Shown here: positions 1 through 44,011 of the stretch, piece by piece | Numbering within the stretch: position 1 is the stretch's first letter | How the letters are laid out: the number at the start of each line of letters is the position of its first letter | Assembly: GCA_021735655.1 (NCBI GenBank) | Contig: JAIPGM010000007.1 | Span: 1 to 64,000 of the forward strand | Direction of reading: 5' to 3' | DNA length: 64,000 nucleotides | Source: Candidatus Omnitrophota bacterium | GTDB lineage: Bacteria; Omnitrophota; Gorgyraeia; Duberdicusellales; 4484-171 | The notes under the pieces: generated by a model | The model's input: the letters and a program-made list of their open reading frames with translations, nothing else | Told to the model about the DNA's origin: nothing | Databases searched by the model: none | Translations under genes and position numbers: made by a program

Positions 1-117
1 TCCTTTACGGGGTCAATTAAGCCCCAGAAAAACAATACAACCTATAACCTATCTACTCTGTGACTATCTATTTATTCTACTGATAATCCAGAGTTTTCAC
101 CAACTATCATTGAACAA

Positions 118-1110
118 TTATCGTATCATCTCCTTATTTTGTTTCTTTTTTAGAATTTGCTGTTCGATCCACGGATAAGTCTTTTTTAAACCCTCTTCTA
201 ATCTAGTTGAGGGAGCCCAACCCAGTATTTTTTTAATTAAGGTGTTGTCGGAATTACGCCCTCTAACACCTTGAGGTTTTGAAATGTCATATTCTTTCAT
301 AATCTTCTTACCAGAAATTCTAATAACCATATCAGTTAACTCATCAATGGTAACCAATTCATCAGAACCAACATTCAAAGGGTGTATATAATCTGATTCC
401 ATTAGTCGGCAAACACCTTCTAAACAATCATCAATATAGCAAAAAGACCGCGTTTGCTTACCATCGCCCCAAATATCAATGGTGCCCAAATTTTCAGCCA
501 TGATGATTTTTCGACACAAAGCAGCCGGTGCCTTCTCTCTGCCACCATCCCAAGTTCCATAAGGGCCAAATATATTGTGGAATCGTACAACCCGCGTATC
601 CAGTTTATAATCTTTACGATAAGCTTCGCAAAGTATCTCGGAAAATAACTTCTCCCAGCCATAAAATTGATCAGGTTGAGCCGGGTAGGCGTCTTCTTCC
701 TTTAAAGCGGTAACTTTTGAATCGAGTTGTTTGTATTCCGGATAAATACAAGCTGAAGAACTAAACATGAAGCGTTCAATCTTATTCTCTACAGAAGCCT
801 GAAGCATATTTATATTAATTAAACCACTATTATGCATAATATCAGCACCAACAGTCCCGATATAGCCAATACCACCCATGTCAGCCGCAAAATTAAAAAC
901 ATACTCAATATCCTTAGTGGCCTTAAGGCAACTATCGAGATCCCTTAGATCCAAAGTTAATTTTTCTGAATAATACCTATCGGGCATATAATCATCCCAC
1001 TTAATATCAACTACTCTTACAAAGACACCTTCTTCGTAGAGACGCTTAGCTAGATGAGATCCAATAAACCCCCCAGCTCCGGTTACTAAGACTTTTTTAT
1101 TTTGCACCAC
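118..1110 (-). CDS. GDP-mannose 3,5-epimerase-like NAD-dependent sugar epimerase (SDR family)
   Basis: 330 aa with N-terminal Rossmann motif VLVTGAGGFIGSH. Several blocks match my recollection of GDP-mannose 3,5-epimerase: FNFAADMGG, SSACIYPEYKQL, RFHNIFGPYGTWDGGREKAPAALCRK, GDGKQTRSF, GVRGRNSDN. The start overlaps the upstream regulator gene by 14 nt. Confidence 0.7.
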   Translation of the reverse strand: MVQNKKVLVTGAGGFIGSHLAKRLYEEGVFVRVVDIKWDDYMPDRYYSEKLTLDLRDLDSCLKATKDIEYVFNFAADMGGIGYIGTVGADIMHNSGLININMLQASVENKIERFMFSSSACIYPEYKQLDSKVTALKEEDAYPAQPDQFYGWEKLFSEILCEAYRKDYKLDTRVVRFHNIFGPYGTWDGGREKAPAALCRKIIMAENLGTIDIWGDGKQTRSFCYIDDCLEGVCRLMESDYIHPLNVGSDELVTIDELTDMVIRISGKKIMKEYDISKPQGVRGRNSDNTLIKKILGWAPSTRLEEGLKKTYPWIEQQILKKKQNKEMIR

Positions 1111-1519
1111 TTTTTTCTCCTTTTACTTGATAGAATAACTCATTTTTATTTTCTAAATTAACTTCTGTTTTTTCGCCATTGTTTTTTAGTTGGTCTTGAA
1201 GTTCAACCCACTCATTTCGGATATGGTTATATTCAATTTCTTTTTTCTTTAGAAAATGATACATAAGGTGCACTTTTTCCTCTAGGCCTTTTTTAGTGAG
1301 GATATACCTTACCTTTCCTAACTTTCCGGGATTTTTGGAAAAGTTCATCGCTTTTATCAGATTTTTTTTGATCAGGGATTTTAAAAGATAATTGGTTTTA
1401 CCCAAAGAAATATCTAAATAAGAAGATACATCTCTCTGAGTCAAATTATCTCCTGAGGATAGAAGACGAAGGACATTGAAAATGTCCTCTTTCAAGGTGT
1501 GTTTATCTATCTTTTCCAT
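1097..1519 (-). CDS. MarR-family winged-helix transcriptional regulator, EPS-associated subtype
   Basis: 140 aa. HTH segment LTQRDVSSYLDISLGKTNYLLKSLIKKNLIK followed by wing KVRYILTKKGLEEK. The SLGKxNY signature matches the EPS-associated MarR subfamily. Its own promoter-operator module lies immediately upstream. Confidence 0.6.
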   Translation of the reverse strand: MEKIDKHTLKEDIFNVLRLLSSGDNLTQRDVSSYLDISLGKTNYLLKSLIKKNLIKAMNFSKNPGKLGKVRYILTKKGLEEKVHLMYHFLKKKEIEYNHIRNEWVELQDQLKNNGEKTEVNLENKNELFYQVKGEKSGAK

Positions 1520-1578
1520 TAATTATATAACCCGTTAAGAAAACTGAATAAGTATAAGTAAAACAGGACTTATTCTAT

Positions 1579-1623
1579 GTTCATCAATTGAACATATTAT
1601 AAACCTTGGCCTATATATGTCAA
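1579..1623 (-). promoter_or_regulatory. sigma70-like promoter (TTGACA-N16-TATAAT) with overlapping palindromic operator GTTCA-N5-TGAAC (copy 1)
   Basis: Minus-strand reading: GTTGACATATATAGGCCAAGGTTTATAATATGTTCAATTGATGAAC. The -35 is at 1623..1618, the -10 at 1601..1596 and the palindrome at 1593..1579. It is near-identical to a second copy at 5946..5991. Confidence 0.6.
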
Positions 1624-1743
1624 CAGCTTTTATGGGAATTGAATGACTAAAGATATCTGGGGCTTAGATGCATAAACCCTTGTCAATAAACTAGTTAGAT
1701 ATTTAAATTTAAATTAGCAAAATTACACTTGTCTATTTAAGGC

Positions 1744-3321
1744 TTAATTAGTCGTGTTGCTCTTAGCTTTTTTTCGATAAAGATAGCCTAAAGGACCACG
1801 GTCATGAAAGCGACTTTTAAAATGAAGGGCTGAAATAATCTTCGGTATTATTGTTTTTTCCAAATCAGAATTAAACTCATAAACTAACCGTGAAATCTTA
1901 GACAAAGCATATATCATCGTTCTTTTGATTCGCCCCGGAGAGGTAGATAGTAAATTACGCTTTCCAATTAGAAAAGCCATAGTACCTACTTTTTTCTTGT
2001 ACGCTCTAGTATAAGGGAAAAAAACTTCTTCCCAAATTAAGGTATCATCATAAAGCATACGTTGATAAAAAGTGCTATGTTTATAAGGATTATCGGCGTT
2101 CTGATGAATCTGTAAACCGTAGTTTTGATAGTCTTCTTTTAGCCACCAATCTTTAAAACCATATTGCTCTTTATAGGTCTCATAAATTATAGTGCCAGGA
2201 TAAGGTACGATAGCACCGGAAACCTGATAAATATGAACTTGATCAAAATGCCTTTTAATATATTTAATATTATTAACAACTGCCAATTCATCTTCCCAAG
2301 GAAAGCCAGTCATCAGATTGACATAAATACGAAATCCTAATTCAGCTGAACAATCAACTGCCTTATGGGCTTGCCCCAAAGTAATACCTTTACGAATTCT
2401 TTTTAAAGTTTCAGAATCTCCACTTTCAATCCCATAGCTAACCATATAACAACCAGCTTCCTTCATCGTTGATAACATTTCAGAATCAACGATATTGGCT
2501 CGAGTTGAACAACACCAAGCTATATCCAACTTGTTATCCTTTAAGGACTGGCAGAAATCTCGGACATATTTTTTATTAAAAGTAAAGGTATCATCAGCAA
2601 TAACAAAAGACTTAATATTATGAGCGTCTTTTCGATGTTTAATCTCTCTAATTACCTCATCGACCGGATGATACCTAATTTTTTGACCAAAGATAGCCCG
2701 ATCACAAAAAGTACAGCCGGCCGGACAACCCCTTGAACAATAAATACGATGAAAACCTTTTAGCAATCCCATGGAAGTACGAAAACGCTCTTGATCAAAA
2801 CAACTAAAATCCAATTTTGGTAAGTCGTTGAGATTAGCTATATACTCGCGTGAAGGATTATGCACTACACATCCTTTAGGATCTTTAAAACTAATTCCTT
2901 TTATTGATTCTAAAGATAGGCCTCTAGCCCCGCTCCAAAAATCACATAATTCTGAAAGGGTTATCTCGCCTTCGTTACGGACTACAATATCTACTCCATT
3001 ATCGAGTGCCTCATCAGGGCATGAAGTAGCATGCGGACCACCAGCAATTACAGTTAACCCTGGTTTCTTAATTCGTTTAATAGTTTTATAAACATCTGGG
3101 ACGCGATAAGTAGAAAGGTGAAAACCGACAAAGGTTGGTTGATAAACCTCAGTTGCCTCTGCCAAATCGTCCCATCCCAAAAAATTATTAAAAGAATTAA
3201 CAATAGCTTTGACCTCATAACCTTTTTCTTTCAGAACTGATGATAGGTAGGCAAAACCAGTTGGCATTTCCGAAATCGGATTGGGAAAAATTAAAATGAA
3301 CTTCTTAGCTTTAGTTAACAT
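1744..3321 (-). CDS. B12-binding domain radical SAM protein (class B radical SAM, methyltransferase-like)
   Basis: 525 aa. The N-terminal cobalamin-binding fold is glycine-rich (TVIAGGPHATSCPDEAL). The radical SAM cluster motif CPAGCTFC (CxxxCxxC) lies in RIYCSRGCPAGCTFCDRA. Confidence 0.75.
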   Translation of the reverse strand: MLTKAKKFILIFPNPISEMPTGFAYLSSVLKEKGYEVKAIVNSFNNFLGWDDLAEATEVYQPTFVGFHLSTYRVPDVYKTIKRIKKPGLTVIAGGPHATSCPDEALDNGVDIVVRNEGEITLSELCDFWSGARGLSLESIKGISFKDPKGCVVHNPSREYIANLNDLPKLDFSCFDQERFRTSMGLLKGFHRIYCSRGCPAGCTFCDRAIFGQKIRYHPVDEVIREIKHRKDAHNIKSFVIADDTFTFNKKYVRDFCQSLKDNKLDIAWCCSTRANIVDSEMLSTMKEAGCYMVSYGIESGDSETLKRIRKGITLGQAHKAVDCSAELGFRIYVNLMTGFPWEDELAVVNNIKYIKRHFDQVHIYQVSGAIVPYPGTIIYETYKEQYGFKDWWLKEDYQNYGLQIHQNADNPYKHSTFYQRMLYDDTLIWEEVFFPYTRAYKKKVGTMAFLIGKRNLLSTSPGRIKRTMIYALSKISRLVYEFNSDLEKTIIPKIISALHFKSRFHDRGPLGYLYRKKAKSNTTN

Positions 3322-3357
3322 ATATCTTTTCTCTCATTTAAAAGTTTATATTTTAAA

Positions 3358-3386
3358 ATCATAACAGGGCTGGTTCCAAAAGTCAA
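3358..3386 (-). promoter_or_regulatory. putative sigma70 promoter for the radical SAM gene (TTGACT-N17-TATGAT)
   Basis: Minus-strand reading: TTGACTTTTGGAACCAGCCCTGTTATGAT, about 40 nt upstream of the ATG at 3321. It carries no GTTCA-N5-TGAAC operator. Confidence 0.3.
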
Positions 3387-3518
3387 TTAGCTTTCTTAAG
3401 CGAAAGACTCACCCTCATCATTAATAAGTTTAAATATTTTTTGCCCTTAACTAAAATTGACCCTCATCTCAAAGTAGGATGCTTTTTACTTAATTGAGGC
3501 TGAAAAAATTATCCATAG

Positions 3519-3677
3519 GTTAAAACAAGGTATAAATAAAGGGCGTCACGGCTGAACTTTCAGTAAAAACAACTAAAACCCCTAATAATAGTAAGATAAT
3601 AACTATTGGCAGAAGCCACCACTTCTTACGAAGTCTTATAAAACTCCAAAACTCCTTTAAAATTGTCAACTTACTCA
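3519..3677 (-). CDS. SxtK-like / DUF5989-family small membrane protein (52 aa); not in ORF track
   Basis: Translation: MSKLTILKEFWSFIRLRKKWWLLPIVIILLLLGVLVVFTESSAVTPFIYTLF. The RBS AAGGAG lies 7 nt upstream of the ATG. The RKKWWLLPI and PFIYTLF signatures match the family that recurrently follows SxtJ and carbamoyltransferase genes. Confidence 0.65.
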
Positions 3678-3689
3678 TGTTTGTCTCCT

Positions 3690-4103
3690 TTAAAACTGAT
3701 TCTCATAGTATTTTTTATCTAAATCAGCCTCAGGCTTAAGAATCCAATAGCTATCTCTTTTTTGGTTAAATTCTGAATCCAAAAACTTTTTACCGAATAA
3801 TCGAGAAAAAACCGCAATCGGAGTAACCACCAAATAAAATAAAATAGATAAAATTAATCCGGTCAAAGCCCAACTGACAATAATGAATAGAGCTCTTAAA
3901 ATCTTATGTAATGGTTTCAAAGCTAAAGGAAAAATAAACGAGAATCCAAAAAGAAAAAACGAAACTACAAAAAACTGAGGGTAAAAAATTCCTTTGCGCC
4001 ATAAAAATAATAAACCCCACAAAATAAAAACTACGCTTAAAGTTAAGCCAAACCTAGCGAGTTCCCTTTTGTCGCTTTTTATGCCTTTTATTTCTTCAAT
4101 CAT
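3690..4103 (-). CDS. SxtJ-like small membrane protein
   Basis: 137 aa with several TM helices. The pattern RFGLTLSVVFILWGL...YLVVTPIAVFSRLFGKKFLD resembles SxtJ-family proteins. It sits 3 nt downstream of the carbamoyltransferase and upstream of the SxtK-like ORF, the same order as sxtI-J-K. Confidence 0.6.
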   Translation of the reverse strand: MIEEIKGIKSDKRELARFGLTLSVVFILWGLLFLWRKGIFYPQFFVVSFFLFGFSFIFPLALKPLHKILRALFIIVSWALTGLILSILFYLVVTPIAVFSRLFGKKFLDSEFNQKRDSYWILKPEADLDKKYYENQF

Positions 4104-4105
4104 AA

Positions 4106-5923
4106 TTAGTCCAACCCAAACTCTCTAAGCCAAGTAATATCTTTATCTAAAGGCTTTTGTTCTTTTTTCTCCAACAAATAGTTTCCGACAATAAGATAGT
4201 CCATATTAGTACACATAAAACACAAATAGGCATCTTCGGGGGTGCAAACTATCGGCTCACCACGCACATTAAAGGAAGTATTAATGATAACTGGACAACC
4301 ATACTTTTGATCCATTTTCCTTAATAACCGGTAATACAAAGGATTATCCTCCTCTTCCACGGTCTGAACCCTTGCTGAATAATCCACATGAGTAACTGCC
4401 GGAATTTCTGAACGCTCAATTTGCAATTGATCCAAACCAGAAAGACTCTCTTGCTCTTTAGTTATTGATTTTCGAACTCTCTGGCTAACCGGAGCAACCA
4501 AAAGCATATAGGGACTTTCGACTTCCAGCTCAAAGTAATCAGAAGCCTTCTCTTTAGTTACTGAAGGCGCAAAAGACCTAAAAGGCTCCCGAAACTTTAT
4601 TTTAAGGTTTATTATCTCCTGCATCTTGGCTGAACGAGCATCGCCAAGAATAGAGCGGTTGCCCAAAGCCCGGGGTCCAAACTCCATTCTCCCTTGAAAC
4701 CAACCGATTACTTTACCAGCGGCAATTAAATCAGCTACTTTTTCGGGAATTTCATCATCATTCAAAAAAGTGTAAGGGACATTATTGCTCTTTAAATACT
4801 CTTCAATACAATCCCTATCAAAGCTAGGCCCCAAATAAGAACCTTGCTGAAAGTCTTTTTTCCGATCAACTTCTCTTTTATTTCCTAGACATTGATACCA
4901 GGCAAACAAGGCTGCCCCCAAGGCGCCTCCGGCGTCTCCGGCAGCCGGCTGGATCCAAATATTTTTAAAGTTGCTTTCGCGTAAAATTCGACCGTTAGCA
5001 ACACAATTTAAAGCTACACCTCCGGCTAAACAAAGATTTTCCTGATTAGTCTGTTGATATAGATGATTGACCATGCGTAACATTACCTCTTCAGTTACCG
5101 CCTGAATAGATGCTGCTAAATCCATATGTTCTTGACTAAATTTAGACTCTGGTTTACGAGGCTCTTGGCCAAATAACCTATGAAAACGGCGGTTAGTCAT
5201 AGTCAAACCAAAGCAATAGTTAAAATAGTTCATATTTAATTTAAAGGAACCATCTTCCTTTAAATCGATCAATTCACGAAATATCAACTCCTTATATTTA
5301 GGCTCACCATAGGGAGCTAAGCCCATAAGTTTATACTCTCCGGAATTAACTTTAAACCCAAGATAGTAAGTAAAAGCTGAATAAAGTAATCCTAAAGAAT
5401 GCGGGAAATGAATTTCAGCTAAAATCTTTATCTGGTTATCTTTACCAACTCCATAACTAGCCGTAGCCCACTCACCTACCCCATCAATGGTTAAAAAAGC
5501 AGCTTTCGAAAAAGGTGAAGCGAAAAATGCCGAAGCAGCATGTGACTGATGATGTTCAGTAAAAATAATTTTTCCTTTATATTTAAGTTGACTACCGATA
5601 AAGTCCTTTATCCAAAGCTTTTGTTTTATCCATAAAGGCATTGCTTTTAAAAAAGAGCTAATCCCTCTCGGAGCATAGGCTAAGTAGGTTTCTAAAATAC
5701 GCTCAAATTTAATAAAAGGTTTATCGTAGAAAGCAACTAAATCTAATTCCTTAGAAGTAAGCCCACTATTCTCTAGGCAGTAATTAATGGCATTTTTAGG
5801 AAAGGAAGAATCATGTTTTTTGCGGCTGAATCTTTCTTCTTGGACAGCTGAAACTATTTGCCCGTCTTGGATGAGACAGGCGGCACTATCATGATAAAAG
5901 GCAGAAATTCCTAGAATATTCAT
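4106..5923 (-). CDS. NodU/CmcH-family carbamoyltransferase
   Basis: 605 aa. The N-terminal ILGISAFYHDSAACLIQDGQIVSAVQEERFSRKKHD is typical of the NodU/CmcH/SxtI family, and the protein has a C-terminal carbamoyltransferase domain. Confidence 0.85.
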   Translation of the reverse strand: MNILGISAFYHDSAACLIQDGQIVSAVQEERFSRKKHDSSFPKNAINYCLENSGLTSKELDLVAFYDKPFIKFERILETYLAYAPRGISSFLKAMPLWIKQKLWIKDFIGSQLKYKGKIIFTEHHQSHAASAFFASPFSKAAFLTIDGVGEWATASYGVGKDNQIKILAEIHFPHSLGLLYSAFTYYLGFKVNSGEYKLMGLAPYGEPKYKELIFRELIDLKEDGSFKLNMNYFNYCFGLTMTNRRFHRLFGQEPRKPESKFSQEHMDLAASIQAVTEEVMLRMVNHLYQQTNQENLCLAGGVALNCVANGRILRESNFKNIWIQPAAGDAGGALGAALFAWYQCLGNKREVDRKKDFQQGSYLGPSFDRDCIEEYLKSNNVPYTFLNDDEIPEKVADLIAAGKVIGWFQGRMEFGPRALGNRSILGDARSAKMQEIINLKIKFREPFRSFAPSVTKEKASDYFELEVESPYMLLVAPVSQRVRKSITKEQESLSGLDQLQIERSEIPAVTHVDYSARVQTVEEEDNPLYYRLLRKMDQKYGCPVIINTSFNVRGEPIVCTPEDAYLCFMCTNMDYLIVGNYLLEKKEQKPLDKDITWLREFGLD

Positions 5924-5945
5924 AAATAATTCATCTAGCGACTCT

Positions 5946-5991
5946 GTTCAATTGATGAACAATATTATAGATTCTTACCTATATATGTCAA
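5946..5991 (-). promoter_or_regulatory. sigma70-like promoter (TTGACA-N16-TATAAT) with overlapping palindromic operator GTTCA-N5-TGAAC (copy 2)
   Basis: Minus-strand reading: GGTTGACATATATAGGTAAGAATCTATAATATTGTTCATCAATTGAAC. The -35 is at 5991..5986, the -10 at 5969..5964 and the palindrome at 5960..5946. The carbamoyltransferase ATG is about 25 nt downstream. Confidence 0.6.
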
Positions 5992-6014
5992 CCCTTTTAA
6001 TAGCAGTTATAGAA

Positions 6015-6905
6015 TCAAAAACGAAGGGTTATTCCTGAGCCGAAATAGAGGTCTTGATGAGTTTTCTTGATTTGAATAAAATACTCTAACTCGTTTTCAG
6101 TAAACAGCTTATGATTAAAAGTAAGGGCTAAGCCCAATGATTTATCCTGAACGTCACGGAGACTAAAAACTAAATCCTTATTTTTAGCTATTTTAACCTT
6201 TGCTCCAAGATAGACTTTTTTTAACTGACCAGACCCATAGTCAACAATGAAGCTTAAACCCAATTTACGGCTAAAGTTCCAGCGGCCGTATAGACTAATA
6301 ATCTTTTCCCTTTTTAAATCACCCACCCCAATCCCTAAACGGTATTTTATGGCTCCCTTTTTAGGATAAATGTTAGGCGATTCAACCTGAACTTTAAAAT
6401 TAAAAACACTCCCTCGGCCTCCCGATAAAATATACTTAAGTCTATTACGTTCGTTAATCTGCCAAAATCCATCAAAAACAATAGACTCTTTTACCCTCTT
6501 TTTTGTCTTAAGTTTTGCCTTCTCATAAGAGTAAACTATTTTCTGCTGCTTGTTTAACTGCCAAATACCACCGAAAGTAAGCGTCTCGGGATTTCGCTTT
6601 CTTTTAACTTCAAAGCTAAGACGATTAAATTTATCAGCCCGCCACAAGCCCTTCAACTTCAAAAAAGAAACTATCTGCTTATTCTTCTCTGACTTGGTTT
6701 TAACTTCAAAGGTTATAAAATCAGCTCCGGCCTCAGTAATCTTTCCCTTTAGAGTTAGCTTATTATCTATGGAACTCTTATCTTCCTCGGCCTTAAAAAC
6801 TAATTCATGGTTTGAAGTTAGCTTCCAACGACCATCAAAAGCAGAATTTCCAATAAACAAAAGATTATCCTTATCTAAAGAAAGTTTTGATTTAGTTTTA
6901 CTCAT
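6015..6905 (-). CDS. hypothetical protein with five Trp-containing beta-type repeats
   Basis: 296 aa, lysine-rich, no obvious signal peptide. The motif G-x-W-x-[LI]-x4-[KR]-[LI]-x-[FY] recurs five times: DGRWKLTSNHELVF, KGLWRADKFNRLSF, GGIWQLNKQQKIVY, DGFWQINERNRLKY, YGRWNFSRKLGLSF. Confidence 0.4.
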   Translation of the reverse strand: MSKTKSKLSLDKDNLLFIGNSAFDGRWKLTSNHELVFKAEEDKSSIDNKLTLKGKITEAGADFITFEVKTKSEKNKQIVSFLKLKGLWRADKFNRLSFEVKRKRNPETLTFGGIWQLNKQQKIVYSYEKAKLKTKKRVKESIVFDGFWQINERNRLKYILSGGRGSVFNFKVQVESPNIYPKKGAIKYRLGIGVGDLKREKIISLYGRWNFSRKLGLSFIVDYGSGQLKKVYLGAKVKIAKNKDLVFSLRDVQDKSLGLALTFNHKLFTENELEYFIQIKKTHQDLYFGSGITLRF

Positions 6906-6961
6906 CTTAGCTAACTAAAATACCTTAATCTAACTAAATTTGGTTTGATTTAATTAATTGA

Positions 6962-7768
6962 CTATAACTTACTATTTTCCAATAGGTTATGTAAAAGGGT
7001 CCTATTGGAGGCGCAGATAAATCCGGGGTTTTTCAAGCTTTCCTTGTTGTAACTAAAAGGAGTCCCGTCTAGGTTAGCAACAACTGCTCCTGAAGCCTCA
7101 GCTATCGCTTGTCCAGCAGCCGTATCCCACTCCATAGTTGGACCACTACGCAAATATAAATCAGCTTGGCCTTCGGCAACTCGGCAAAATTTTAGTGAAC
7201 TTCCAGCATGAATAACAACAGGATTAGTAAATGAAGAAATCATTCTATCCTCTTCCTTGCTACTATGCGAACGGCTTCTAACCACGGTTATTTTATCAAG
7301 CAAAGGTTTCCTGGTTCTGATTGGTTTAGATTTACCGCCCTTATCTTGCCTAAAAGCTCCTTTGGATTTTAAGCCAAAATATAGTTGATCATAAGCCGGT
7401 AGAACAACTACCCCAAAAACAGGAATGGTTTTTTCAATTAAAGCAATATTAACCGTAAACTCGCCGTTTTTTTGGATAAACTCTTTAGTCCCGTCCAAAG
7501 GATCAACCAACCAAAAACTATCCCAACCGCTTCTTTGAGAAAAAGGTATTTCTTTAGCCTCTTCTGAAATAATCGGAATCTCAGGAAAAGCTTCTTTTAA
7601 ACCAGCGGCGATTACTTCTTGAGCTAGTCGGTCAGCTAAAGTTAAAGGGCTATTATCTTTTTTTAAATTAACTTCGAAATCTGAAGATTTGTATACTTCT
7701 ACTACTCTTTGTGAGGCAAGTGAGGCTATCTCGAGGATTTTTTCAATCTGAGAATCAGAAAAGTTCAT
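6962..7768 (-). CDS. cysQ: 3'(2'),5'-bisphosphate nucleotidase (inositol monophosphatase family)
   Basis: 268 aa with IMPase motifs WLVDPLDGTKEF and WDTAAG. It is adjacent to cysC and sat. Confidence 0.75.
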   Translation of the reverse strand: MNFSDSQIEKILEIASLASQRVVEVYKSSDFEVNLKKDNSPLTLADRLAQEVIAAGLKEAFPEIPIISEEAKEIPFSQRSGWDSFWLVDPLDGTKEFIQKNGEFTVNIALIEKTIPVFGVVVLPAYDQLYFGLKSKGAFRQDKGGKSKPIRTRKPLLDKITVVRSRSHSSKEEDRMISSFTNPVVIHAGSSLKFCRVAEGQADLYLRSGPTMEWDTAAGQAIAEASGAVVANLDGTPFSYNKESLKNPGFICASNRTLLHNLLENSKL

Positions 7769-7772
7769 GCTT

Positions 7773-8384
7773 TTAGATATAACCTTTTTGAGATAAATAA
7801 TTTAAAATGCTCTTTGCTGCTTCTTCCTTGGTTAGCTTACCAGTATCAATAACTATTTCAGCCTGCTCTGGTTCTTCATAGGGAGCAGAAACCCCGGTAA
7901 ACTGCTTAATTTCACCACTGCGAGCCTTTTTATAAAGCCCCTTAGGGTCTCTTTGTTCGCAAATTGCAAGATCAGCCTTAACAAAAACTTCAATAAAATC
8001 ACCTTGCTTCATAAGGCTCCGGGCCTTATCTCTGTCTTTTCTGTAAGGAGAAATAAAAGCAGTTATAGCTAAAGTTCCGGCTTCAGAAAATAATTTTGCC
8101 ACCTCACTAATTCTTCGAATATTTTCTTGGCGATCTTCCGGAGAAAAACCCAAGTTACTATTTAAGCCGTGGCGAACATTGTCACCATCTAGAAGATAAA
8201 CCTGGTGTTCCTTCTCAAAAAGCATTGCCTGAAGCTCAACAGCAACTGTAGATTTACCGCTTGAAGGTAAACCCGTAAACCAAATAACTGCCCCCTTGTG
8301 CTTATTGCGCTTTTCTCTGTCCTGTTTAGATATCCCTGATTCATGCCATGTAATATTTGTGCTCTTTCTTTGTTCTTGATTCAT
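7773..8384 (-). CDS. cysC: adenylyl-sulfate kinase
   Basis: 203 aa. Canonical P-loop [26 protein letters not shown] and FISPY motifs are all present. Confidence 0.85.
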
Positions 8385-8387
8385 TTT

Positions 8388-9665: not shown

Positions 9666-9708
9666 TTCGCCTATTCTTTCTTAAGATATAGTCAAATTGG
9701 TTGTTCTT

Positions 9709-10437
9709 TTAACTTAAAAATTTATTAACTTCTAAATATTTTATTATTTTCTTTGCTGCTTCCTCAGGTGAAATATCTTTGGTGCTAAGAGTAATTTCGG
9801 GGTTTTGAGGCGGCTCATAAGGATCATCAATACCAGTAAAAAGTTTCAATAATCCCTGCCTTGCTTTTTTATAAAGACCGCGAGGATCTCTCTTTTCACA
9901 CTCCTCAAGCGGTGTATCAACATATACTTCAATAAAATTATTACACATTTTCCTCACAAAACTTCTTGATTCTTGATAAGGTGAAATAAAAGAAGCTATA
10001 ACAATAACTTTATTTTTCTCAAGCAAGCTAGCTAATAACCCTACTCGCTTGATATGTCTATCTCTCTCAGACTTAGTAAAACCGATCTTAGGAAATATTG
10101 CTCTGATTTTTTCACCGTCTAAGCGTTCAACATTAAAAGACTTAGCCGTAAGTATCCGATAAAGATTCTCAGCAATGGCTTTTTTCCCTGCGGCAGAAAG
10201 TCCGGTTAACCAAATCACACAAGGAATCGCCTCTCTACGACCAAAAGAAATTTTATCCCAAATTCGTTCATGAAAAAAATAAATCGCCATCTTGCTAACA
10301 AATTCCAAAAAACCAACCGTAAAGGCTAAACTTATTTTTCTTGTAAAAATAAATACAATGATTGATGTGGCTATAGTGCCGGCTGATCTCCAAGTAATAG
10401 CCTTAAGTATCGAACGTGCCTTTGTCTCTCTAAACAT
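9709..10437 (-). CDS. DUF2061-like N-terminal membrane domain fused to an APS-kinase-like domain with degenerate catalytic motifs
   Basis: 242 aa. Residues 1-65 contain RSILKAITWRSAGTIATS...FFHERIW (DUF2061-like, two TM helices). The C-terminal domain aligns with CysC, but the P-loop is GLSAAGKKA (canonical GLPSSGKST), DGDNVR is replaced by DGEKIR, and ENIRR by RHIKR. The FISPY and RDPRGLYKKAR blocks are retained. Confidence 0.6.
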   Translation of the reverse strand: MFRETKARSILKAITWRSAGTIATSIIVFIFTRKISLAFTVGFLEFVSKMAIYFFHERIWDKISFGRREAIPCVIWLTGLSAAGKKAIAENLYRILTAKSFNVERLDGEKIRAIFPKIGFTKSERDRHIKRVGLLASLLEKNKVIVIASFISPYQESRSFVRKMCNNFIEVYVDTPLEECEKRDPRGLYKKARQGLLKLFTGIDDPYEPPQNPEITLSTKDISPEEAAKKIIKYLEVNKFLS

Positions 10438-10440
10438 AAG

Positions 10441-11583
10441 TTATTTATTAAAAAACCTTCTAGTTGTTGATATTACATAGTTTATTTGCCGGTCAGTTAG
10501 CCAAGGATGGATCGGAAGGCTCAAAATTCTAGTAGCCATACTTTCGGCAACTTTAAGCTTACCACTTATCTTTACCCTCTTAAAAGCCTTCATCTTATGA
10601 AGACAAACCGGATAATAAATTCGTGAATGTATACCCTTGGAATTCAAGTAGTTAAGAAGTTTATCTCTTTTTGCCGAAATTCTCAAGGTATAAAGATGGT
10701 AAACATGTCTACAAGCCTTAGATTCACTGGGAATTTTAAGCTCTTTAATATCTTTAAAAGCATTGTTATATTTTTGAGCGACACTTCTTCTTAAATCATT
10801 AAACTTATTAATATGTTTTAACTTAGCTAAAAGTACTGCTGCCTGCATTGAATCAAGGCGCGAGTTATAGCCGATATAAGCAGCTCTATACTGGCTAGTT
10901 TGACCGTGATTGCGCAAGATAGTTAAAAAAGAAAACAACTTGCTATCATTAGTTGCAATCAAGCCACCGTCACCAAAAGCACCGAGATTTTTAGAAGGAA
11001 AAAAACTAAAAGCTCCACAATCGCCCAGAGAACCTGCTTGTTTGCCATTAAACTTTGCACCAAAACTTTGAGCCGTATCTTCAACCACAAATAAGCCACG
11101 GCTTTTCGCTAATTTTGTAATTTCGCTCATATTAGCTGCCAAACCATATAAATGCACCGGGATAATACCTACTGTATTCTTATTAATCGCTTTTTTTATT
11201 TTTAAAGGATCAATATTGTAACTTTCCGAATCAATATCAACAAATACCGGCGTGGCCCCTGAGTGTACAATACTTTCAGCAGTAGCAATAAATGTAAAAG
11301 GCGTAGTGATAATCTCGTCTTTCTTATCGAAATGCTCCTTACCTTTTATCTTTAAAGCCAAAGCCTTTAAAGATAAAATTAAAGCATCGGTTCCTGAAGC
11401 AACACCAAGGGCATGCTTTGTTCCTAAATAGTCTTCGGCCTTAGCTTCAAAATCCGAAACTGCCTTGCCTAAAATCCATTGCTGAGACTTAAGGCACTGT
11501 TTAATATTCTGATCAATCTCTTTTTTTAAAAAAGAATACTCTTTCTTTAAGTCTAGGAGTGGTATATTAAAATTTTTCTTCAT
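10441..11583 (-). CDS. DegT/DnrJ/EryC1/StrS-family PLP-dependent sugar aminotransferase
   Basis: 380 aa with typical family blocks GTDALILSLKAL, FSFFPSKNLGAFGDGG and the catalytic Lys region. Confidence 0.8.
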   Translation of the reverse strand: MKKNFNIPLLDLKKEYSFLKKEIDQNIKQCLKSQQWILGKAVSDFEAKAEDYLGTKHALGVASGTDALILSLKALALKIKGKEHFDKKDEIITTPFTFIATAESIVHSGATPVFVDIDSESYNIDPLKIKKAINKNTVGIIPVHLYGLAANMSEITKLAKSRGLFVVEDTAQSFGAKFNGKQAGSLGDCGAFSFFPSKNLGAFGDGGLIATNDSKLFSFLTILRNHGQTSQYRAAYIGYNSRLDSMQAAVLLAKLKHINKFNDLRRSVAQKYNNAFKDIKELKIPSESKACRHVYHLYTLRISAKRDKLLNYLNSKGIHSRIYYPVCLHKMKAFKRVKISGKLKVAESMATRILSLPIHPWLTDRQINYVISTTRRFFNK

Positions 11584-11591
11584 TTGCTATC

Positions 11592-14518
<2,927 letters not shown>

Positions 14519-14522
<4 letters not shown>

Positions 14523-15475
14523 TTATAAGCCTCCCTAAACCAATCTACTGTCTTCTTTAGACCTTGGGCAAAATCGACCTTTGGAGAAAACCCTAATAAT
14601 TCTTTTGCCTTTTGTATATCAGCATGGGTCTTCCTCACATCTCCAAGTCGAATAGGACAATAGTTAGGCTCTAACTTGCTTCCGATAATCTCCTTTAAAT
14701 TATTAAATAAATTATTCACCGAATTAGGTATTCCTAAGCCAACGTTAAATGCTTCCGAACCAACGTTATCCTTCTCAAGACACCGAATATTCATATCAAC
14801 CACATCGCTAATAAAAGTAAAGTCCCTCTCCTGATTTCCGTCTCCATATATCGGAGGACTCTTCCCTTCGAATAAACAATTTATGAACTTCGGAATAACA
14901 ACTGCGTATTCATCCTCTAGAGATTGACGCGGACCATATACATTAAAATACCTTAAATTTAAAATTTTCATATTATAAATTTTACTAAAAACATAGGAAT
15001 ATTGTTCAACGATCAACTTTGTGGCAGCGTAAGGTGAAATTGGTTTTGCAATCTCATTTTCTTTCTCTGGAAAATCATCCCTCTCTCCGTATATAGAGCT
15101 TGAAGAAGCACAAACTATCCTTTTTATACCAGCTTCTTTAGCCGCTAAAAAAAGATTTAAAGTTCCGCTAACATTAACTTTATGATAATCAAGTGGAGCC
15201 TCTACTGACTTCGGAACACTGCGTAAGGCTGCCTGGTGAGAAATAAGCTCTACTCCCGGTAAAACCTGATCCAATATTTTTTGATCGGCAAAGTCACTTT
15301 TAATAAACTTTATTTTACTAAAACTTTGTTCCAAATTGTCAAGATTACCAGTTATAAGGTTATCTACTACAGTGACCTCAGCGCCTAATTTTACAAGTTT
15401 ATCAACTATATGTGAACCAATAAAGCCAGCACCACCAGTAACTAAAACTTTTCTATCCTTAAGGCTATTAGACAT
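14519..15475 (-). CDS. NAD-dependent nucleotide-sugar 4-epimerase (WbpP/UDP-GlcNAc or UDP-GlcA 4-epimerase-like)
   Basis: 318 aa SDR enzyme with [13 protein letters not shown], catalytic YAATK and [11 protein letters not shown]. It is paired with a UDP-HexNAc dehydrogenase, as in WbpO/WbpP. Confidence 0.7.
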
Positions 15476-15477
15476 AT

Positions 15478-16779
15478 TTAAAGCACCTCCAAATTAAGAT
15501 ATTTTCTTTTATATACGTTGCGAGTATCAAAAACAAACTTTGAGTTCTTTCTAATAAGTTCATAGTCTAGATAAGAGTGATCAGTAACAATAACCACACA
15601 ATTATATTTTTGCAAATTACTCTTACTAAGAGCTACCGCTTTTAAATTAATTCCGTTTATCTTTAAGTATGGTATCAACGGATCATAAAAGCTCACCTTG
15701 GATTTTTTGCTTAGCTTTTCAATAATATCTAAAGCCGGAGACTCTCTTAAATCTTTAACATCTTTTTTATAAGTAACCCCAACAATCAAAATCTTAGCTT
15801 TTCTTAAAGAAACGCCCCTAATTTTAAGTGATTTCTCAAGCCGCTCAACTACATATCTAGGCATAAAGTGATCAATGTAAGCAGCTGAATCAATCATCTT
15901 GGTCTTAAAACCCATCTTTTTTGCCTTCCAGGAAAGATACATTGGATCAGCCGGAATGCAATGGCCGCCAACGCCTGGCCCAGGATAAAAAGGCATAAAA
16001 CCAAAAGGCTTTGTCTTTGCAGCCTCAATTACCTCCCAAATACTTATCCCTAGCTTATGAGCTACAATAGCAAACTCATTAACCAGGGCAATATTTACCA
16101 AACGAAAGGTATTTTCGAGAAGTTTTGCGCTTTCAGCTACCTCAGGACTAGATACTGAAAATACCTGTTTAATAATCTTAGAGTACAAAGCTTTGGCTAG
16201 ACTGGTCGATTTAGGGGATAACCCACCAACGACTTTTGGTATTTTTGCCAAAGTATGTTTTTTATCTCCCGGGTTTATTCTTTCAGGAGAAAAACAAAGA
16301 AAAAAATCTTTTTCGCTCTCCAAACCAGACTTCTCAAGAATTGGTAAAACTACCTCTCGAGTAGTTGTCGGATAAGAGGTGCTCTCCAAAACGATTAGCT
16401 GAGACTTCCGTAAATACTTCTTAATTAACTTACTAGCTGCAACTACATAAGAAATATCCGGTATCTTTACCTTACGCAAAGGCGTTGGCACGCAAATAAT
16501 TAAAATATCAGAATCAGCCAAAACTCGCCTTTCAGTGGTCGGTAAAAACTTCTTAGCTTTAATCAACGCTTTAATCGTCTTTGGGTCAATATCAACGATA
16601 TACTGCTTTGCCTCTTTCAATTTGTTTACCCGTAAAAGATTATTATCGAAACCGTAAACAAAAAAACCTCGCTTTGCAAAATCTACCGCCAAAGGTAAGC
16701 CAACATAGCCCAGGCCGATAATACAAATTTTAGCCTTTTTTTTAATTATTTTTTCTTTAAGTACCTGGTAGTTACTCAT
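15478..16779 (-). CDS. UDP-N-acetyl-D-glucosamine/mannosamine 6-dehydrogenase family (WbpO/Cap5O/TviB-like)
   Basis: Nucleotide-sugar dehydrogenase with IGLGYVGLPLAV, the catalytic Cys in GGHCIP and a C-terminal UDP-binding domain. The start is probably the ATG at 16779 (MSNYQVLKEK); the track's longer ORF begins at a TTG. Confidence 0.75.
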   Translation of the reverse strand: MSNYQVLKEKIIKKKAKICIIGLGYVGLPLAVDFAKRGFFVYGFDNNLLRVNKLKEAKQYIVDIDPKTIKALIKAKKFLPTTERRVLADSDILIICVPTPLRKVKIPDISYVVAASKLIKKYLRKSQLIVLESTSYPTTTREVVLPILEKSGLESEKDFFLCFSPERINPGDKKHTLAKIPKVVGGLSPKSTSLAKALYSKIIKQVFSVSSPEVAESAKLLENTFRLVNIALVNEFAIVAHKLGISIWEVIEAAKTKPFGFMPFYPGPGVGGHCIPADPMYLSWKAKKMGFKTKMIDSAAYIDHFMPRYVVERLEKSLKIRGVSLRKAKILIVGVTYKKDVKDLRESPALDIIEKLSKKSKVSFYDPLIPYLKINGINLKAVALSKSNLQKYNCVVIVTDHSYLDYELIRKNSKFVFDTRNVYKRKYLNLEVL

Positions 16780-16798
16780 CTTGATTTTAAAAAGCAAT

Positions 16799-18139
16799 CT
16801 ATCTTCCGATTCCGATATATTCAAATCCTAGGTCACGAACCTTATCGCGATCAAACATATTTCTTCCGTCAACGATCAACGGATAACGCATCAACTTCTT
16901 AATCTTTTTTAAATCTAGCTTCTTAAACTCTTCCCATTCGGTCAACAAGCAAAGACAATCACTGCCCTTTACGGCCGCATAAGGATCTTTAGCAAACTTT
17001 AACTTAGCTGTTTTAAAGATATCCTTTGCCTCAGAATAGGCTTGGGGATCATAGGCTGAAATTATTGCTCCTTGTTTTAAGAATGAATTTACGATATCAA
17101 CCGAGGGAGCAAAACGCATATCATCGGTATCGGGTTTAAACGATAAGCCTAAAATTGCAATTTTCTTATTTTTTATAATCCAAAGCCGATCTTTTACCTT
17201 CTCGATGAAATTATGACGTTGACCTTGATTAATATTTTTAATCTCTTTCAATAAATTAAATTCATAACCTAACTTCTTAGAAATATAAAAAAATGCTTCG
17301 ATATCCTTAGGGAAACAAAAACCACCATAGCCTAAGCCAGCATCCAGAAAGTCTCTACCAATTCTCTTATCCATACCCATGGCTTGGGCTATTTTTTCAA
17401 TATCGGCTCCGGCTAAATCGCAAACTCGCGAAACCGCATTAATAAACGATACCTTGGTAGCTAAAAATGAATTGCAGGCATGCTTTATTAGCTCAGCCGT
17501 ATTAATATCAGTAACTATAATCGGGACCTTAATTTTGGCATAGATATCTTTTAATATATTTTCAGCCTTCGTTGACTCAACCCCGATAACTATTCTGTCC
17601 GGAGAGAAAAAATCATAGATTGCCTTACCTTCCCTTAAAAATTCAGGGTTAGAGGCAATATCAAAGTCTCGGCTATTTTTTTTGTAGCGAGAAATAATAT
17701 CCTTTATCTTCTTTCCGGTCTGAACCGGAACAGTTGATTTTCCAACAATTAACTTATAAGAATTAAGATTATTAGCAACTACCCGAGCAACATTCTCTAT
17801 GGCGCTAAGATCAGCTGAACCATCTTTCTGCGGTGGAGTACCGACAGCAATAAAAATCACTTGGCTCTTTCTAATTGCCTCAGTTAACGAGGCTGAAAAA
17901 ACCAAGCCACCACTCTTAATACCTTTTTTAACCAAAGGCTCTAGATCCGGCTCAAAGAACGGTACTTTTTTGGCTTTTAAACTCTGGATTTTTTTCTTAT
18001 CTTTATCAACACAAATTACCTTATGCCCTAATTCACAAAAACAAGCTGCAGCGACTAAGCCAACGTGACCAGCCCCAACCACACAAAGATTATACTTTTT
18101 AACTGTTTTATTCTTTTGCTTGTTTGACTTTACTTTCAT
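16799..18139 (-). CDS. ugd: UDP-glucose 6-dehydrogenase
   Basis: Blocks VVGAGHVGLV, GGFCFPKD and GLSFKPDTDDMR are present. The likely start is MKVKSNKQ at about 18139; the track ORF extends to 18202. Confidence 0.8.
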   Translation of the reverse strand: MKVKSNKQKNKTVKKYNLCVVGAGHVGLVAAACFCELGHKVICVDKDKKKIQSLKAKKVPFFEPDLEPLVKKGIKSGGLVFSASLTEAIRKSQVIFIAVGTPPQKDGSADLSAIENVARVVANNLNSYKLIVGKSTVPVQTGKKIKDIISRYKKNSRDFDIASNPEFLREGKAIYDFFSPDRIVIGVESTKAENILKDIYAKIKVPIIVTDINTAELIKHACNSFLATKVSFINAVSRVCDLAGADIEKIAQAMGMDKRIGRDFLDAGLGYGGFCFPKDIEAFFYISKKLGYEFNLLKEIKNINQGQRHNFIEKVKDRLWIIKNKKIAILGLSFKPDTDDMRFAPSVDIVNSFLKQGAIISAYDPQAYSEAKDIFKTAKLKFAKDPYAAVKGSDCLCLLTEWEEFKKLDLKKIKKLMRYPLIVDGRNMFDRDKVRDLGFEYIGIGR

Positions 18140-18152
18140 TAATACCTTTCTT

Positions 18153-20561: not shown

Positions 20562-20562
20562 A

Positions 20563-44010: not shown

Positions 44011-44011
44011 T

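What the first reader, a model, noticed from the sequence alone, without database searches (positions are those of the whole stretch)
118..18139. Precursor-only glycan locus: nucleotide-sugar toolkit plus PAPS synthesis, carbamoylation and B12-radical SAM, with no glycosyltransferase, flippase or sulfotransferase in view
Over 18 kb the window encodes Ugd, UXS, a WbpO/WbpP-like dehydrogenase/epimerase pair, a DegT aminotransferase, Gmd, Fcl and a GDP-mannose 3,5-epimerase-like enzyme (GDP-L-Gal or GDP-L-Gul). It also encodes a complete sulfate-activation set (Sat, CysC, CysQ plus an extra APS-kinase-like protein), a carbamoyltransferase and a B12-radical SAM enzyme. Together these suggest a heavily decorated (sulfated, carbamoylated, possibly C-methylated) acidic polysaccharide. 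No glycosyltransferase, Wzx/Wzy, ABC exporter or sulfotransferase is present between coordinates 118 and 20561. Either those genes lie beyond the window start, or PAPS is consumed by an unrecognised enzyme here (candidates: the Trp-repeat hypothetical at 6015..6905 or the DUF2061-APSK-like protein).
Basis: inference. Interest (0 to 1): 0.65.

Follow-up and report, generated by a model that had tools for sequence, protein, structure and literature searches.

The report
Front end of Omnitrophota surface-sugar locus
This is the sugar-building-block and sulfate-activation front section of a very long cell-surface polysaccharide gene cluster of an uncultured Omnitrophota bacterium; the "missing" assembly genes most likely lie further downstream, so it is largely ordinary, with a few new details.

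Summary
The window comes from an uncultured Omnitrophota bacterium.

The order lptD, Ugd, a second sugar dehydrogenase, SDR enzymes and DegT recurs in several Omnitrophota. In some it continues with an optional PAPS cassette, an all-beta "BetaRep" protein and a MarR_EPS regulator, then tens of kb of further sugar genes.

"Precursor-only" is mostly a window-edge effect. Relatives carry glycosyltransferases, an ABC exporter, Wzx and, in one case, a recognisable sulfotransferase on the same strand. This organism's downstream genes are seen for only 9 kb, in an independent assembly that diverges from the window below coordinate 129.

Both proposed hidden sulfotransferases are unlikely:
- BetaRep (6015..6905) mostly occurs without PAPS genes and models as an all-beta fold with no match among solved structures.
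- The DUF2061-APS-kinase belongs to a large family of membrane-anchored kinases. Its Omnitrophota clade has lost catalytic residues and sits beside an intact CysC, so it is probably a non-catalytic paralogue.

New: a promoter-plus-palindrome operator precedes MarR_EPS across the phylum and is duplicated here before the carbamoyltransferase cassette.

The parts
18153..20576 (-). LptD-like outer-membrane LPS-assembly protein; first gene of the conserved block
   Evidence: OstA_2 and a weak LptD hit. The 52%-identical orthologue in L007 hits PF04453 LptD. The RibE-ROK-LptD-Ugd order is shared with L006, L007 and L010.
16799..18202 (-). UDP-glucose 6-dehydrogenase (Ugd/TuaD-like)
   Evidence: Three UDPG_MGDP_dh domains. 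TIGR03026 scores 467 bits against a cutoff of 190, and TuaD is the best named match.
15478..16824 (-). UDP-N-acetylhexosamine 6-dehydrogenase-like (TviB/WecC/WbpO type)
14519..15475 (-). SDR 4-epimerase-like (TviC/GalE/WbpP type)
12518..14522 (-). Gmd (13479..14522) and Fcl-like GDP-fucose synthase (12518..13576). This pair is an insertion specific to this genome; the relatives go straight from the epimerase to UXS.
   Evidence: Gmd TIGR01472 scores 496 bits against a cutoff of 415. Fcl scores 305 bits, below its cutoff. The pair is absent at this site in L004, L006, L007, L010 and L011.
11592..12521 (-). UDP-glucuronate decarboxylase (UXS)
   Evidence: 374 bits to human UXS1 structures over the full length.
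10441..11583 (-). DegT-family sugar aminotransferase; last gene of the conserved block before the PAPS cassette
   Evidence: Pfam 390 bits. After an unnamed-substrate entry (7b0d), the closest solved relatives are QdtB and WbpE.
9709..10437 (-). DUF2061 two-helix membrane anchor fused to an APS-kinase-like domain with degenerate catalytic motifs (GLSAAGKK instead of GxxxxGKS/T; LDGEK instead of LDGDN). Probably a non-catalytic paralogue.
   Evidence: D87A and D89A each abolish APS kinase activity in human PAPSS1 (PMC8528679).
8388..9665 (-). ATP sulfurylase (Sat), a divergent clade carrying GRKHAD
   Evidence: PUA_2 + ATP-sulfurylase domains. It aligns end to end with solved ATP sulfurylases. 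It scores below the NCBIfam cutoff. The motif is shared with L006 and L011.
7773..8384 (-). Canonical APS kinase CysC ([16 protein letters not shown])
   Evidence: TIGR00455 scores 275 bits against a cutoff of 139. Motifs seen in the alignment.
6962..7768 (-). CysQ 3'(2'),5'-bisphosphate nucleotidase (removes PAP)
   Evidence: TIGR01331 scores 290 bits against a cutoff of 229.
6015..6905 (-). "BetaRep": an Omnitrophota-restricted, cytoplasmic, all-beta Trp-repeat protein with no solved-structure match. It is the last gene before the MarR_EPS-type promoter.
5945..5991 (-). Promoter-operator copy 1: TTGACA-16-TATAAT followed by the palindrome TGTTCA-N5-TGAACA, upstream of the carbamoyltransferase cassette
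1744..5923 (-). Decoration cassette: NodU/CmcH-type O-carbamoyltransferase (4106..5923), a 137-aa membrane protein (3690..4103), a 52-aa DUF5989 protein (3520..3678) and a B12-binding radical SAM enzyme (1744..3321)
   Evidence: Gene sizes and order match sxtI-sxtJ-sxtK (PMC2679770). Carbamoyltransferase-DUF5989 adjacency recurs in L017 and L094.
1578..1623 (-). Promoter-operator copy 2, upstream of MarR_EPS; conserved across Omnitrophota
1097..1519 (-). MarR-family EPS-associated regulator (TIGR04176); first gene of the downstream operon
   Evidence: 94.7 bits against a cutoff of 88. Homologues sit at the same place in L004-L011, L019, L020, L027 and L029.
118..1110 (-). GDP-mannose 3,5-epimerase-like SDR. 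Its last 9 nt fall in the stretch where the window diverges from the independent assembly.
   Evidence: 376 bits to plant GME structures. The breakpoint is at window 128/129.

Best explanation
Window 118..20576 is the promoter-proximal, precursor-supplying part of a very long, single-strand cell-envelope glycan supercluster, probably LPS-type, of an uncultured Omnitrophota bacterium.

Layout:
- A conserved first unit runs lptD, Ugd, HexNAc dehydrogenase, 4-epimerase, UXS, DegT.
- An accessory PAPS cassette is inserted at a fixed site after DegT: a membrane-anchored pseudo-APS-kinase, then Sat, CysC and CysQ.
- The BetaRep protein closes that unit.
- Two copies of a strong promoter with a TGTTCA-N5-TGAACA operator follow. 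One drives the carbamoyltransferase / SxtJ-K-like / B12-radical-SAM decoration cassette. The other drives MarR_EPS and a long downstream operon.

Inferred steps:
- Glycosyltransferases, export genes and the sulfotransferase lie in that downstream, strain-variable part or elsewhere in the genome.
- Sat and CysC make PAPS, a conventional sulfotransferase uses it, and CysQ removes the PAP by-product.
- The DUF2061-APSK paralogue no longer phosphorylates APS. It probably binds APS/PAPS or partners with CysC at the membrane.
- MarR_EPS binds the palindrome and co-regulates both units.
For: Shown:
- Gene identities.
- Housekeeping genes fill the rest of the window upstream of ROK and tRNA-Pro.
- The same gene order occurs in L004, L006/L008, L007, L010 and L011.
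- The PAPS cassette sits at the same site in the window, L006/L008, L007 and L011 as Sat+CysC, and in L013, L014 and L018 as CysDN. It is absent at that site in L004/L009, L010, L034, L041 and L044.
- L013 carries a 192-aa Sulfotransfer_3/_1 protein two genes after BetaRep. L136, from another lineage, has a Sulfotransfer_1 gene next to CysNC, DUF2061-APSK and CysD.
- Relatives have assembly genes on the same strand: GT9 directly after BetaRep in L011; a TIGR04440 glycosyltransferase and an ABC exporter 8-13 kb after MarR_EPS in L134; Wzx and two GT2 before BetaRep, and Wzx plus a GT4 fusion after it, in L005.
- An independent assembly of this organism continues after the GME-like gene with RmlA, RmlC, RmlB, Fcl, a split transketolase, an SDR, a B12-rSAM and a GHMP kinase. 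About 65 kb of that contig remain unread.
- 105 of the 120 best DUF2061-APSK hits keep LDGD. In the alignment, 16 of 122 sequences are degenerate at the P-loop Ser/Thr or either Asp. They are each other's nearest neighbours, with within-group identity of 59% against 63% for canonical members.
- Degenerate copies sit beside a canonical CysC in six assemblies (five distinct sequences; L006 and L008 are identical). The one Omnitrophota cassette without a separate CysC (L014) has intact motifs.
- The palindrome occurs exactly twice in 64 kb against 0.13 expected by chance. It lies directly upstream of the MarR_EPS homologue in 12 of 13 loci that carry one.
Against: - No glycosyltransferase, flippase or sulfotransferase has been seen for this organism itself, neither in the window nor in the 9 kb beyond it.
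- The window and the independent assembly diverge at window 128/129, so the true continuation of the window's record is unknown.
- Only one of the Omnitrophota PAPS-positive loci shows a sulfotransferase within reach.
- A canonical-motif DUF2061-APSK also co-occurs with a CysNC fusion in L136, so co-occurrence alone does not force degeneration.
- Asp to Glu in the window's copy is conservative and might keep some activity.
- The LPS assignment rests on lptD adjacency, GT9 and heptose genes in relatives, not on chemistry.
- Regulator-operator binding is inferred.
Confidence: 0.6

Rival explanations
1. PAPS is consumed by an unrecognised enzyme encoded within the window. Either the DUF2061-APSK-like protein has become a membrane-bound sulfotransferase or PAPS-delivering protein, or BetaRep is a new kind of sulfotransferase.
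For: No recognisable sulfotransferase occurs in the window, in the 9 kb beyond it, or near the cassette in L006/L134, L007 and L011. The DUF2061-APSK is the invariable first gene of the cassette and keeps the [13 protein letters not shown] and FTG motifs shared with canonical APS kinases while losing kinase motifs. The clade stays under purifying selection. BetaRep follows CysQ directly in six loci.
Against: BetaRep occurs in 46 species representatives, and most have no PAPS genes within 10 kb. Its neighbours there are radical SAM enzymes, SDRs, GAPDH, TyrRS or Wzx. It models as an all-beta fold with no sulfotransferase similarity. In the DUF2061-APSK clade the altered catalytic positions vary (K/T/S/R/A/V and E/G/S/K/T), which looks like relaxation rather than a new active site. 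Most family members are ordinary kinases. L013 and L136 use conventional sulfotransferases alongside a DUF2061-APSK.
Confidence: 0.12
2. The Sat-CysC-CysQ genes serve ordinary assimilatory sulfate reduction and merely sit among sugar genes.
For: PAPS is the assimilatory intermediate in many bacteria. The rest of the genome was not seen, so cysH and sir could lie elsewhere.
Against: No cysH or sir gene is seen in 64 kb plus 9 kb or in relatives' cassettes; the PAPS_reduct-domain genes there are CysD. The cassette is optional among close relatives and always occupies the same slot inside the glycan operon, in two non-orthologous sulfurylase versions. A sulfotransferase is adjacent in L013 and L136.
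Confidence: 0.1
3. The region feeds two separate products. The conserved lptD-to-DegT block, with PAPS, would modify lipid A or the LPS core. The MarR_EPS-led operon would make an independent, strain-variable O-antigen or capsule. On this reading the precursors do not all end up in one heavily decorated polymer.
For: A strong promoter-operator separates the blocks. The first block is conserved while the part after MarR_EPS differs between relatives: sialic-acid-type genes in L004, phosphonate genes in L005, heptose genes in L007. The window diverges from the other assembly just after the first gene of the second block. A preprint reports hyper-variable polysaccharide cassettes in Omnitrophota (10.64898/2026.05.20.726742).
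Against: No lipid A or core transferase is identified in the first block. Everything lies on one strand with short gaps, so read-through is possible.
Confidence: 0.3

Closest known systems
O-antigen, capsule and EPS biosynthesis clusters with dedicated sulfate activation, such as rhizobial NodPQ plus NodH/LpsS and cyanobacterial sulfated-EPS clusters (from general knowledge, not tested here)
   Same: Nucleotide-sugar genes are co-located with ATP sulfurylase, APS kinase and a PAP phosphatase. A relative (L013) has a small PAPS-type sulfotransferase in the cluster.
   Different: No sulfotransferase, glycosyltransferase or exporter has yet been seen for this organism. The cassette carries an extra membrane-anchored, catalytically degenerate APS-kinase paralogue. 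The cluster starts at lptD and has a phylum-specific layout.
APS-kinase-like, non-catalytic domain at the C-terminus of fungal ATP sulfurylase (chains 1i2d and 1m8p appear as weaker matches; its role as an allosteric PAPS-binding domain is from general knowledge)
   Same: An APS-kinase fold retained without kinase catalytic residues, encoded next to an active sulfurylase and kinase.
   Different: Here it is a separate protein with an N-terminal DUF2061 membrane hairpin rather than a fusion to the sulfurylase. Its ligand binding and role are untested.
sxtI-sxtJ-sxtK carbamoylation module of saxitoxin clusters (PMC2679770)
   Same: A carbamoyltransferase of about 610 aa is followed by genes of about 135 aa and about 54 aa. 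Here they are 605 aa, 137 aa and a 52-aa DUF5989 protein, in the same order.
   Different: It sits in a glycan locus, not an alkaloid cluster. Homology of the 137-aa protein to SxtJ was not demonstrated.
MarR family EPS-associated regulators (TIGR04176)
   Same: Scores above the family cutoff and heads a polysaccharide operon.
   Different: A specific conserved promoter plus TGTTCA-N5-TGAACA operator is defined here for the Omnitrophota members and is duplicated in this window. Two literature searches on this regulator family returned nothing relevant.

Membership tests
Complete surface-polysaccharide (O-antigen/EPS) assembly cluster | Nucleotide-sugar precursor genes | tested here: met
Complete surface-polysaccharide (O-antigen/EPS) assembly cluster | Glycosyltransferases plus a flippase/polymerase or ABC exporter in the same cluster | tested here: not met
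   None in window 118..20576 or in the 9 kb beyond it in L001. They are present in syntenic relatives L005, L011 and L134. About 65 kb of this organism's Logan contig could not be read.
PAPS synthesis module | ATP sulfurylase domain | tested here: met
   PF01747 + PF14306 and full-length alignment to solved enzymes. It scores below the TIGR00339 cutoff and has a GRKHAD variant.
PAPS synthesis module | APS kinase with an intact P-loop and DGDN motif | tested here: met
   7773..8384: TIGR00455 scores 275 against a cutoff of 139; GLPSSGKST and LDGDNVR are present.
PAPS synthesis module | PAP phosphatase CysQ | tested here: met
   TIGR01331 scores 290 against a cutoff of 229.
Catalytically active APS kinase (for 9709..10437) | Domain-level similarity to APS kinase | tested here: met
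   TIGR00455 scores 193 against a cutoff of 139; 159 bits to the solved SAT/APS kinase 2gks.
Catalytically active APS kinase (for 9709..10437) | Walker A GxxxxGK[S/T] and both Asp residues of DGDN | tested here: not met
   GLSAAGKK and LDGEK. D87A and D89A each abolish activity in human PAPSS1 (PMC8528679). The Asp to Glu change here is conservative, so residual activity is not excluded.
PAPS-dependent sulfotransferase (for BetaRep 6015..6905) | Sulfotransferase domain, or an alpha/beta fold with a PAPS-binding loop | tested here: not met
PAPS-dependent sulfotransferase (for BetaRep 6015..6905) | Co-occurrence with PAPS synthesis genes | tested here: not met
   Only about 7 of about 50 loci have PAPS genes within 10 kb.
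MarR_EPS regulator (TIGR04176) | Score above the curated cutoff, located in a polysaccharide locus | tested here: met
   94.7 against 88; synteny.
MarR_EPS regulator (TIGR04176) | Binds a palindromic operator at its own promoter | not testable with these tools
   A conserved TGTTCA-N5-TGAACA lies just after the -10 box. Binding itself is inferred.
SxtI/J/K-type carbamoylation module | Carbamoyltransferase N and C domains plus a small DUF5989 protein | tested here: met
SxtI/J/K-type carbamoylation module | SxtJ homologue | tested here: inconclusive
   The 137-aa membrane ORF has the right size and position but no family hit. No SxtJ sequence was available for comparison.
GDP-mannose 3,5-epimerase | Full-length similarity to characterised GME | tested here: met
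   376 bits to 2c59 and 8sg0, against 104 bits to the next family, Fcl. Catalytic residues were not checked.

The most novel reading that the evidence does not exclude
The Omnitrophota clade of DUF2061-APS-kinase-like proteins, including 9709..10437, is a conserved membrane-anchored pseudokinase. It would bind APS or PAPS, or pair with CysC, to hand activated sulfate to an envelope glycan or lipid acceptor at the inner membrane, possibly together with the novel-fold BetaRep protein. Omnitrophota would then make a sulfated LPS-type glycan by a route that includes a component not described before.
Probability: 0.15. Interest if true: 0.65.

Novelty: new member of a known kind. Interest (0 to 1): 0.35.

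Why it matters
Omnitrophota are uncultured, often ultra-small and possibly host-dependent bacteria, and nothing is known of their surface chemistry. This locus gives a phylum-wide template for their envelope-glycan cluster: where it starts, what is conserved, and where accessory cassettes plug in. It predicts that a subset of species sulfate and carbamoylate their surface. It also yields three testable items: a conserved promoter-operator for MarR_EPS regulators, an apparent APS-kinase pseudoenzyme, and a phylum-specific all-beta protein with no match among solved structures. The central claim of the finding, a locus that makes precursors but has no assembly genes, is mainly a consequence of where the window and the source contig end.

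Tried and rejected
- Exact-protein look-up of the GME-like gene failed. The window differs from the public assembly in the gene's last codons.
- The first AlphaFold run on the window's BetaRep, with 43 sequences, was too poor to use (pLDDT 56). It was replaced by a 120-sequence run on the full-length homologue P0009.
- The afdb50 fold library was unavailable.
It did not recover the L006 contig or any PAPS-positive locus.
- I first misread the orientation of L001 and assumed only 4.5 kb of contig remained downstream. I therefore spent the last protein search on a relative. In fact about 74 kb of Logan contig _3401 lie beyond the window start.
- phmmer with two sulfotransferases from related loci found nothing in the window or the other loci.
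- Rfam found only a tRNA.
- Literature searches on DUF2061, Omnitrophota sulfotransferases and TIGR04176 returned nothing relevant.
- Early on I considered a Leptospira rfb locus (one strand, low GC, MarR). I rejected it once homologues named the phylum.

Full report
**Observation**

Every ORF of 100 aa or more that matters in the 64-kb window lies on the minus strand, at 35-40% GC.
- Ugd
- a TviB/WbpO-like dehydrogenase
- a TviC/GalE-like epimerase
- Gmd (above its equivalog cutoff)
- an Fcl-like reductase
- UXS (374 bits to human UXS1)
- a DegT aminotransferase whose closest solved named relatives are QdtB and WbpE
- DUF2061 + APS_kinase
- ATP sulfurylase
- CysC
- CysQ (above cutoff)
- a hypothetical protein without any family hit
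- a NodU/CmcH-type carbamoyltransferase
- a B12-binding radical SAM enzyme
- a protein scoring 376 bits against plant GDP-mannose 3,5-epimerase

No glycosyltransferase, flippase, exporter or sulfotransferase domain is found between 118 and 20576.

**Organism and surroundings**

Named homologues of the hypothetical protein are Candidatus Omnitrophica/Omnitrophota MAGs, and the identical protein carries NCBI locus tag K9L86_06075. Upstream of the region lie tRNA-Pro (21624..21701), ROK and RibE. Beyond them the window holds only housekeeping genes: the trp operon, rho, prfA, polA, glycogen synthase, glycolysis and oxidative-stress genes. No cysH or sir gene appears.

**What lies beyond the window start**

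An independent assembly of sample SRR12088349 (Logan contig _3401) is base-for-base identical to the window from 11519 down to 129. It is unrelated to window 1..128, and those 128 bases match nothing else fetched. The break lies 9 nt before the stop of the GME-like gene.

I infer that the window starts at the end of its source contig, at an assembly-graph branch, meaning a strain-variable junction. In the Logan path the next genes are RmlA, RmlC, an RmlB with a roughly 320-aa insertion, a second Fcl, a split transketolase, an SDR, another B12-radical SAM enzyme and a GHMP kinase. These are all still precursor genes.

By the record coordinates, this contig runs about 74 kb past the window start. 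Only 9 kb could be read.

**Comparative anatomy**

Several Omnitrophota contigs share the same order:

RibE, ROK, LptD, Ugd, HexNAc dehydrogenase, epimerase, UXS, DegT, [DUF2061-APSK, Sat, CysC, CysQ], BetaRep, MarR_EPS, SDR, and so on.

- Gmd and Fcl are an insertion specific to this genome.
- The carbamoyltransferase cassette is an insertion between BetaRep and MarR_EPS.
- The PAPS cassette is optional. It is present in the window, L006/L008, L007 and L011 as Sat + CysC, fused in L006 and L007.
- In L013, L014 and L018 it is present as CysD + CysN, confirmed above NCBIfam cutoffs.
- It is absent at the same junction in L004/L009, L010, L034, L041 and L044.
- Two non-orthologous sulfurylase types in the same slot, always with CysQ nearby and never with cysH, argue for PAPS made as a sulfuryl donor rather than for assimilation.

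**Where the assembly genes are in relatives**

- L011 has a GT9 heptosyltransferase-family gene directly after BetaRep.
- The continuation of the closest long contig (L134) has a TIGR04440 glycosyltransferase, a Glf-NeuB fusion and an ABC exporter 8-13 kb after MarR_EPS.
- L005 has Wzx and two GT2 genes before BetaRep, and Wzx plus a methyltransferase-GT4 fusion after it.
- L013 has a 192-aa sulfotransferase (Sulfotransfer_3/_1, with an SGLPRSGTS loop) two genes after BetaRep.
- A preprint describes hyper-variable polysaccharide cassettes in Omnitrophota (10.64898/2026.05.20.726742).

It is supported by analogy only and is not shown for this organism.

**Candidate 1 for a hidden sulfotransferase: BetaRep (6015..6905)**

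- The family has 126 close homologues, 46 loci in species representatives and 472 clusters at 50% identity. The listed ones are about 330 aa or shorter fragments, with no added domains.
- It has no signal peptide. The window's copy lacks one roughly 38-aa repeat that the homologues have.
- It sits in glycan loci, but with varied neighbours: B12-radical SAM (9 loci), SDRs, CysQ (6), GAPDH, TyrRS and Wzx upstream; MarR_EPS, RmlA, a papain-like protease and GT9 downstream.
- Most loci have no PAPS genes within 10 kb.
- A 120-sequence AlphaFold model of homologue P0009 is confident (pLDDT 86, pTM 0.79) and all-beta.
- Foldseek against the PDB gives no match with E below 1e-3 and TM of about 0.1.

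This is not a sulfotransferase-like fold. Its function remains unknown. Its constant position just before the MarR_EPS promoter suggests a regulatory or operon-boundary role, which is speculation.

**Candidate 2: DUF2061-APSK (9709..10437)**

- The fusion is very common across phyla, with 7558 hits.
- 105 of the best 120 hits keep LDGD, and 98 keep GK-ST.
- In an alignment of 122 sequences, 16 are degenerate at the P-loop Ser/Thr or at either Asp of DGD. These include the window's copy (GLSAAGKK, LDGEK). They are each other's nearest neighbours.
- They remain 59% identical to one another, against 63% among canonical members. The protein is therefore conserved while its catalytic positions drift.
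- Each Asp of DGDN is required for APS kinase activity in human PAPSS1 (PMC8528679).
- In six Omnitrophota assemblies the degenerate copy sits beside a canonical CysC (five distinct sequences; L006 and L008 are identical). In L014, which has no separate CysC, the DUF2061 copy has intact motifs. This is a small sample.
- In L136, from another lineage, an intact copy co-occurs with a CysNC fusion and a Sulfotransfer_1 gene.

I conclude it is probably a non-catalytic, membrane-anchored paralogue that binds APS/PAPS or tethers CysC. It is not a sulfotransferase, although that cannot be excluded.

**Regulatory element (new)**

Two perfect sigma-70 consensus promoters (TTGACA-16-TATAAT) lie on the minus strand at 5991..5964 and 1623..1596. 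Each is followed at once by TGTTCA-N5-TGAACA. The palindrome occurs only at these two places in 64 kb, against 0.13 expected.

Across the fetched loci it lies directly upstream of the MarR_EPS homologue in 12 of the 13 loci that carry one. In L007 it lies upstream of a NusG-like / methyltransferase / MarR block.

It is most simply read as the MarR_EPS operator. Its second copy places the carbamoyltransferase / DUF5989 / radical SAM cassette in the same regulon. That cassette has the gene sizes and order of sxtI-sxtJ-sxtK (PMC2679770), and carbamoyltransferase-DUF5989 adjacency recurs in L017 and L094.

**Verdict**

The region is the precursor and PAPS front end of an Omnitrophota envelope-glycan supercluster, a new member of a known kind. 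The "precursor-only" appearance is best explained by window and contig truncation at a variable junction. The pseudo-APS-kinase, the novel-fold BetaRep family and the conserved operator are the parts worth following up.

Noticed in passing
window 5945..5991 and 1578..1623 (minus strand): Twin perfect sigma-70 promoters, each followed by the palindrome TGTTCA-N5-TGAACA. The same element precedes MarR_EPS homologues across Omnitrophota loci, so it is a probable operator.
   Followed up: yes
window 1..128: The first 128 bases are unrelated to an otherwise identical independent assembly (Logan SRR12088349_3401). The break is 9 nt before the stop of the GME-like gene. It looks like a contig end at a strain-variable branch point.
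   Followed up: partly
window 21624..21701 (minus strand): tRNA-Pro (CGG) lies between RibE and ROK, just upstream of the glycan block. It is the only Rfam or ARAGORN hit in the window.
   Followed up: no
L001 12984..14951 (9 kb beyond the window start in the Logan assembly): The dTDP-glucose 4,6-dehydratase is 655 aa. The RmlB match is split into residues 1-92 and 416-649, so a roughly 320-aa insertion, possibly an intein, interrupts it.
   Followed up: no
L017 11406..13415 (also L026): A 669-aa GDP-mannose 4,6-dehydratase carries a LAGLIDADG_3 domain in its middle. This may be another intein or homing endonuclease inside a sugar dehydratase of an Omnitrophota glycan locus.
   Followed up: no
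window 8388..9665: The ATP sulfurylase has GRKHAD where the aligned solved ATP sulfurylase has GRDHAG, and it scores below the NCBIfam cutoff. The variant is shared with L006 and L011, so it is a clade feature rather than an error.
   Followed up: partly
L005, L016, L017, L021, L023, L029, L036, L039, L045 (gene just upstream of BetaRep): In nine loci a roughly 500-aa B12-binding radical SAM gene directly precedes BetaRep. In L005 the two genes share the boundary base at 10001, hinting at a functional link between them.
   Followed up: partly
L007 12633..14308: In this relative a NusG-like paralogue and a methyltransferase sit between the operator and MarR_EPS, where BetaRep and CysQ lie in other loci. 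This could be an operon-specific antiterminator for the long glycan operon.
   Followed up: no
whole window: All genes over 64 kb are on one strand, with uniformly negative GC skew (-0.14 to -0.26).
   Followed up: no
window 43006..45037: Two tandem GalT-like genes (DUF4921/DUF4931, GalP_UDP_transf domains) lie in the housekeeping part of the window.
   Followed up: no
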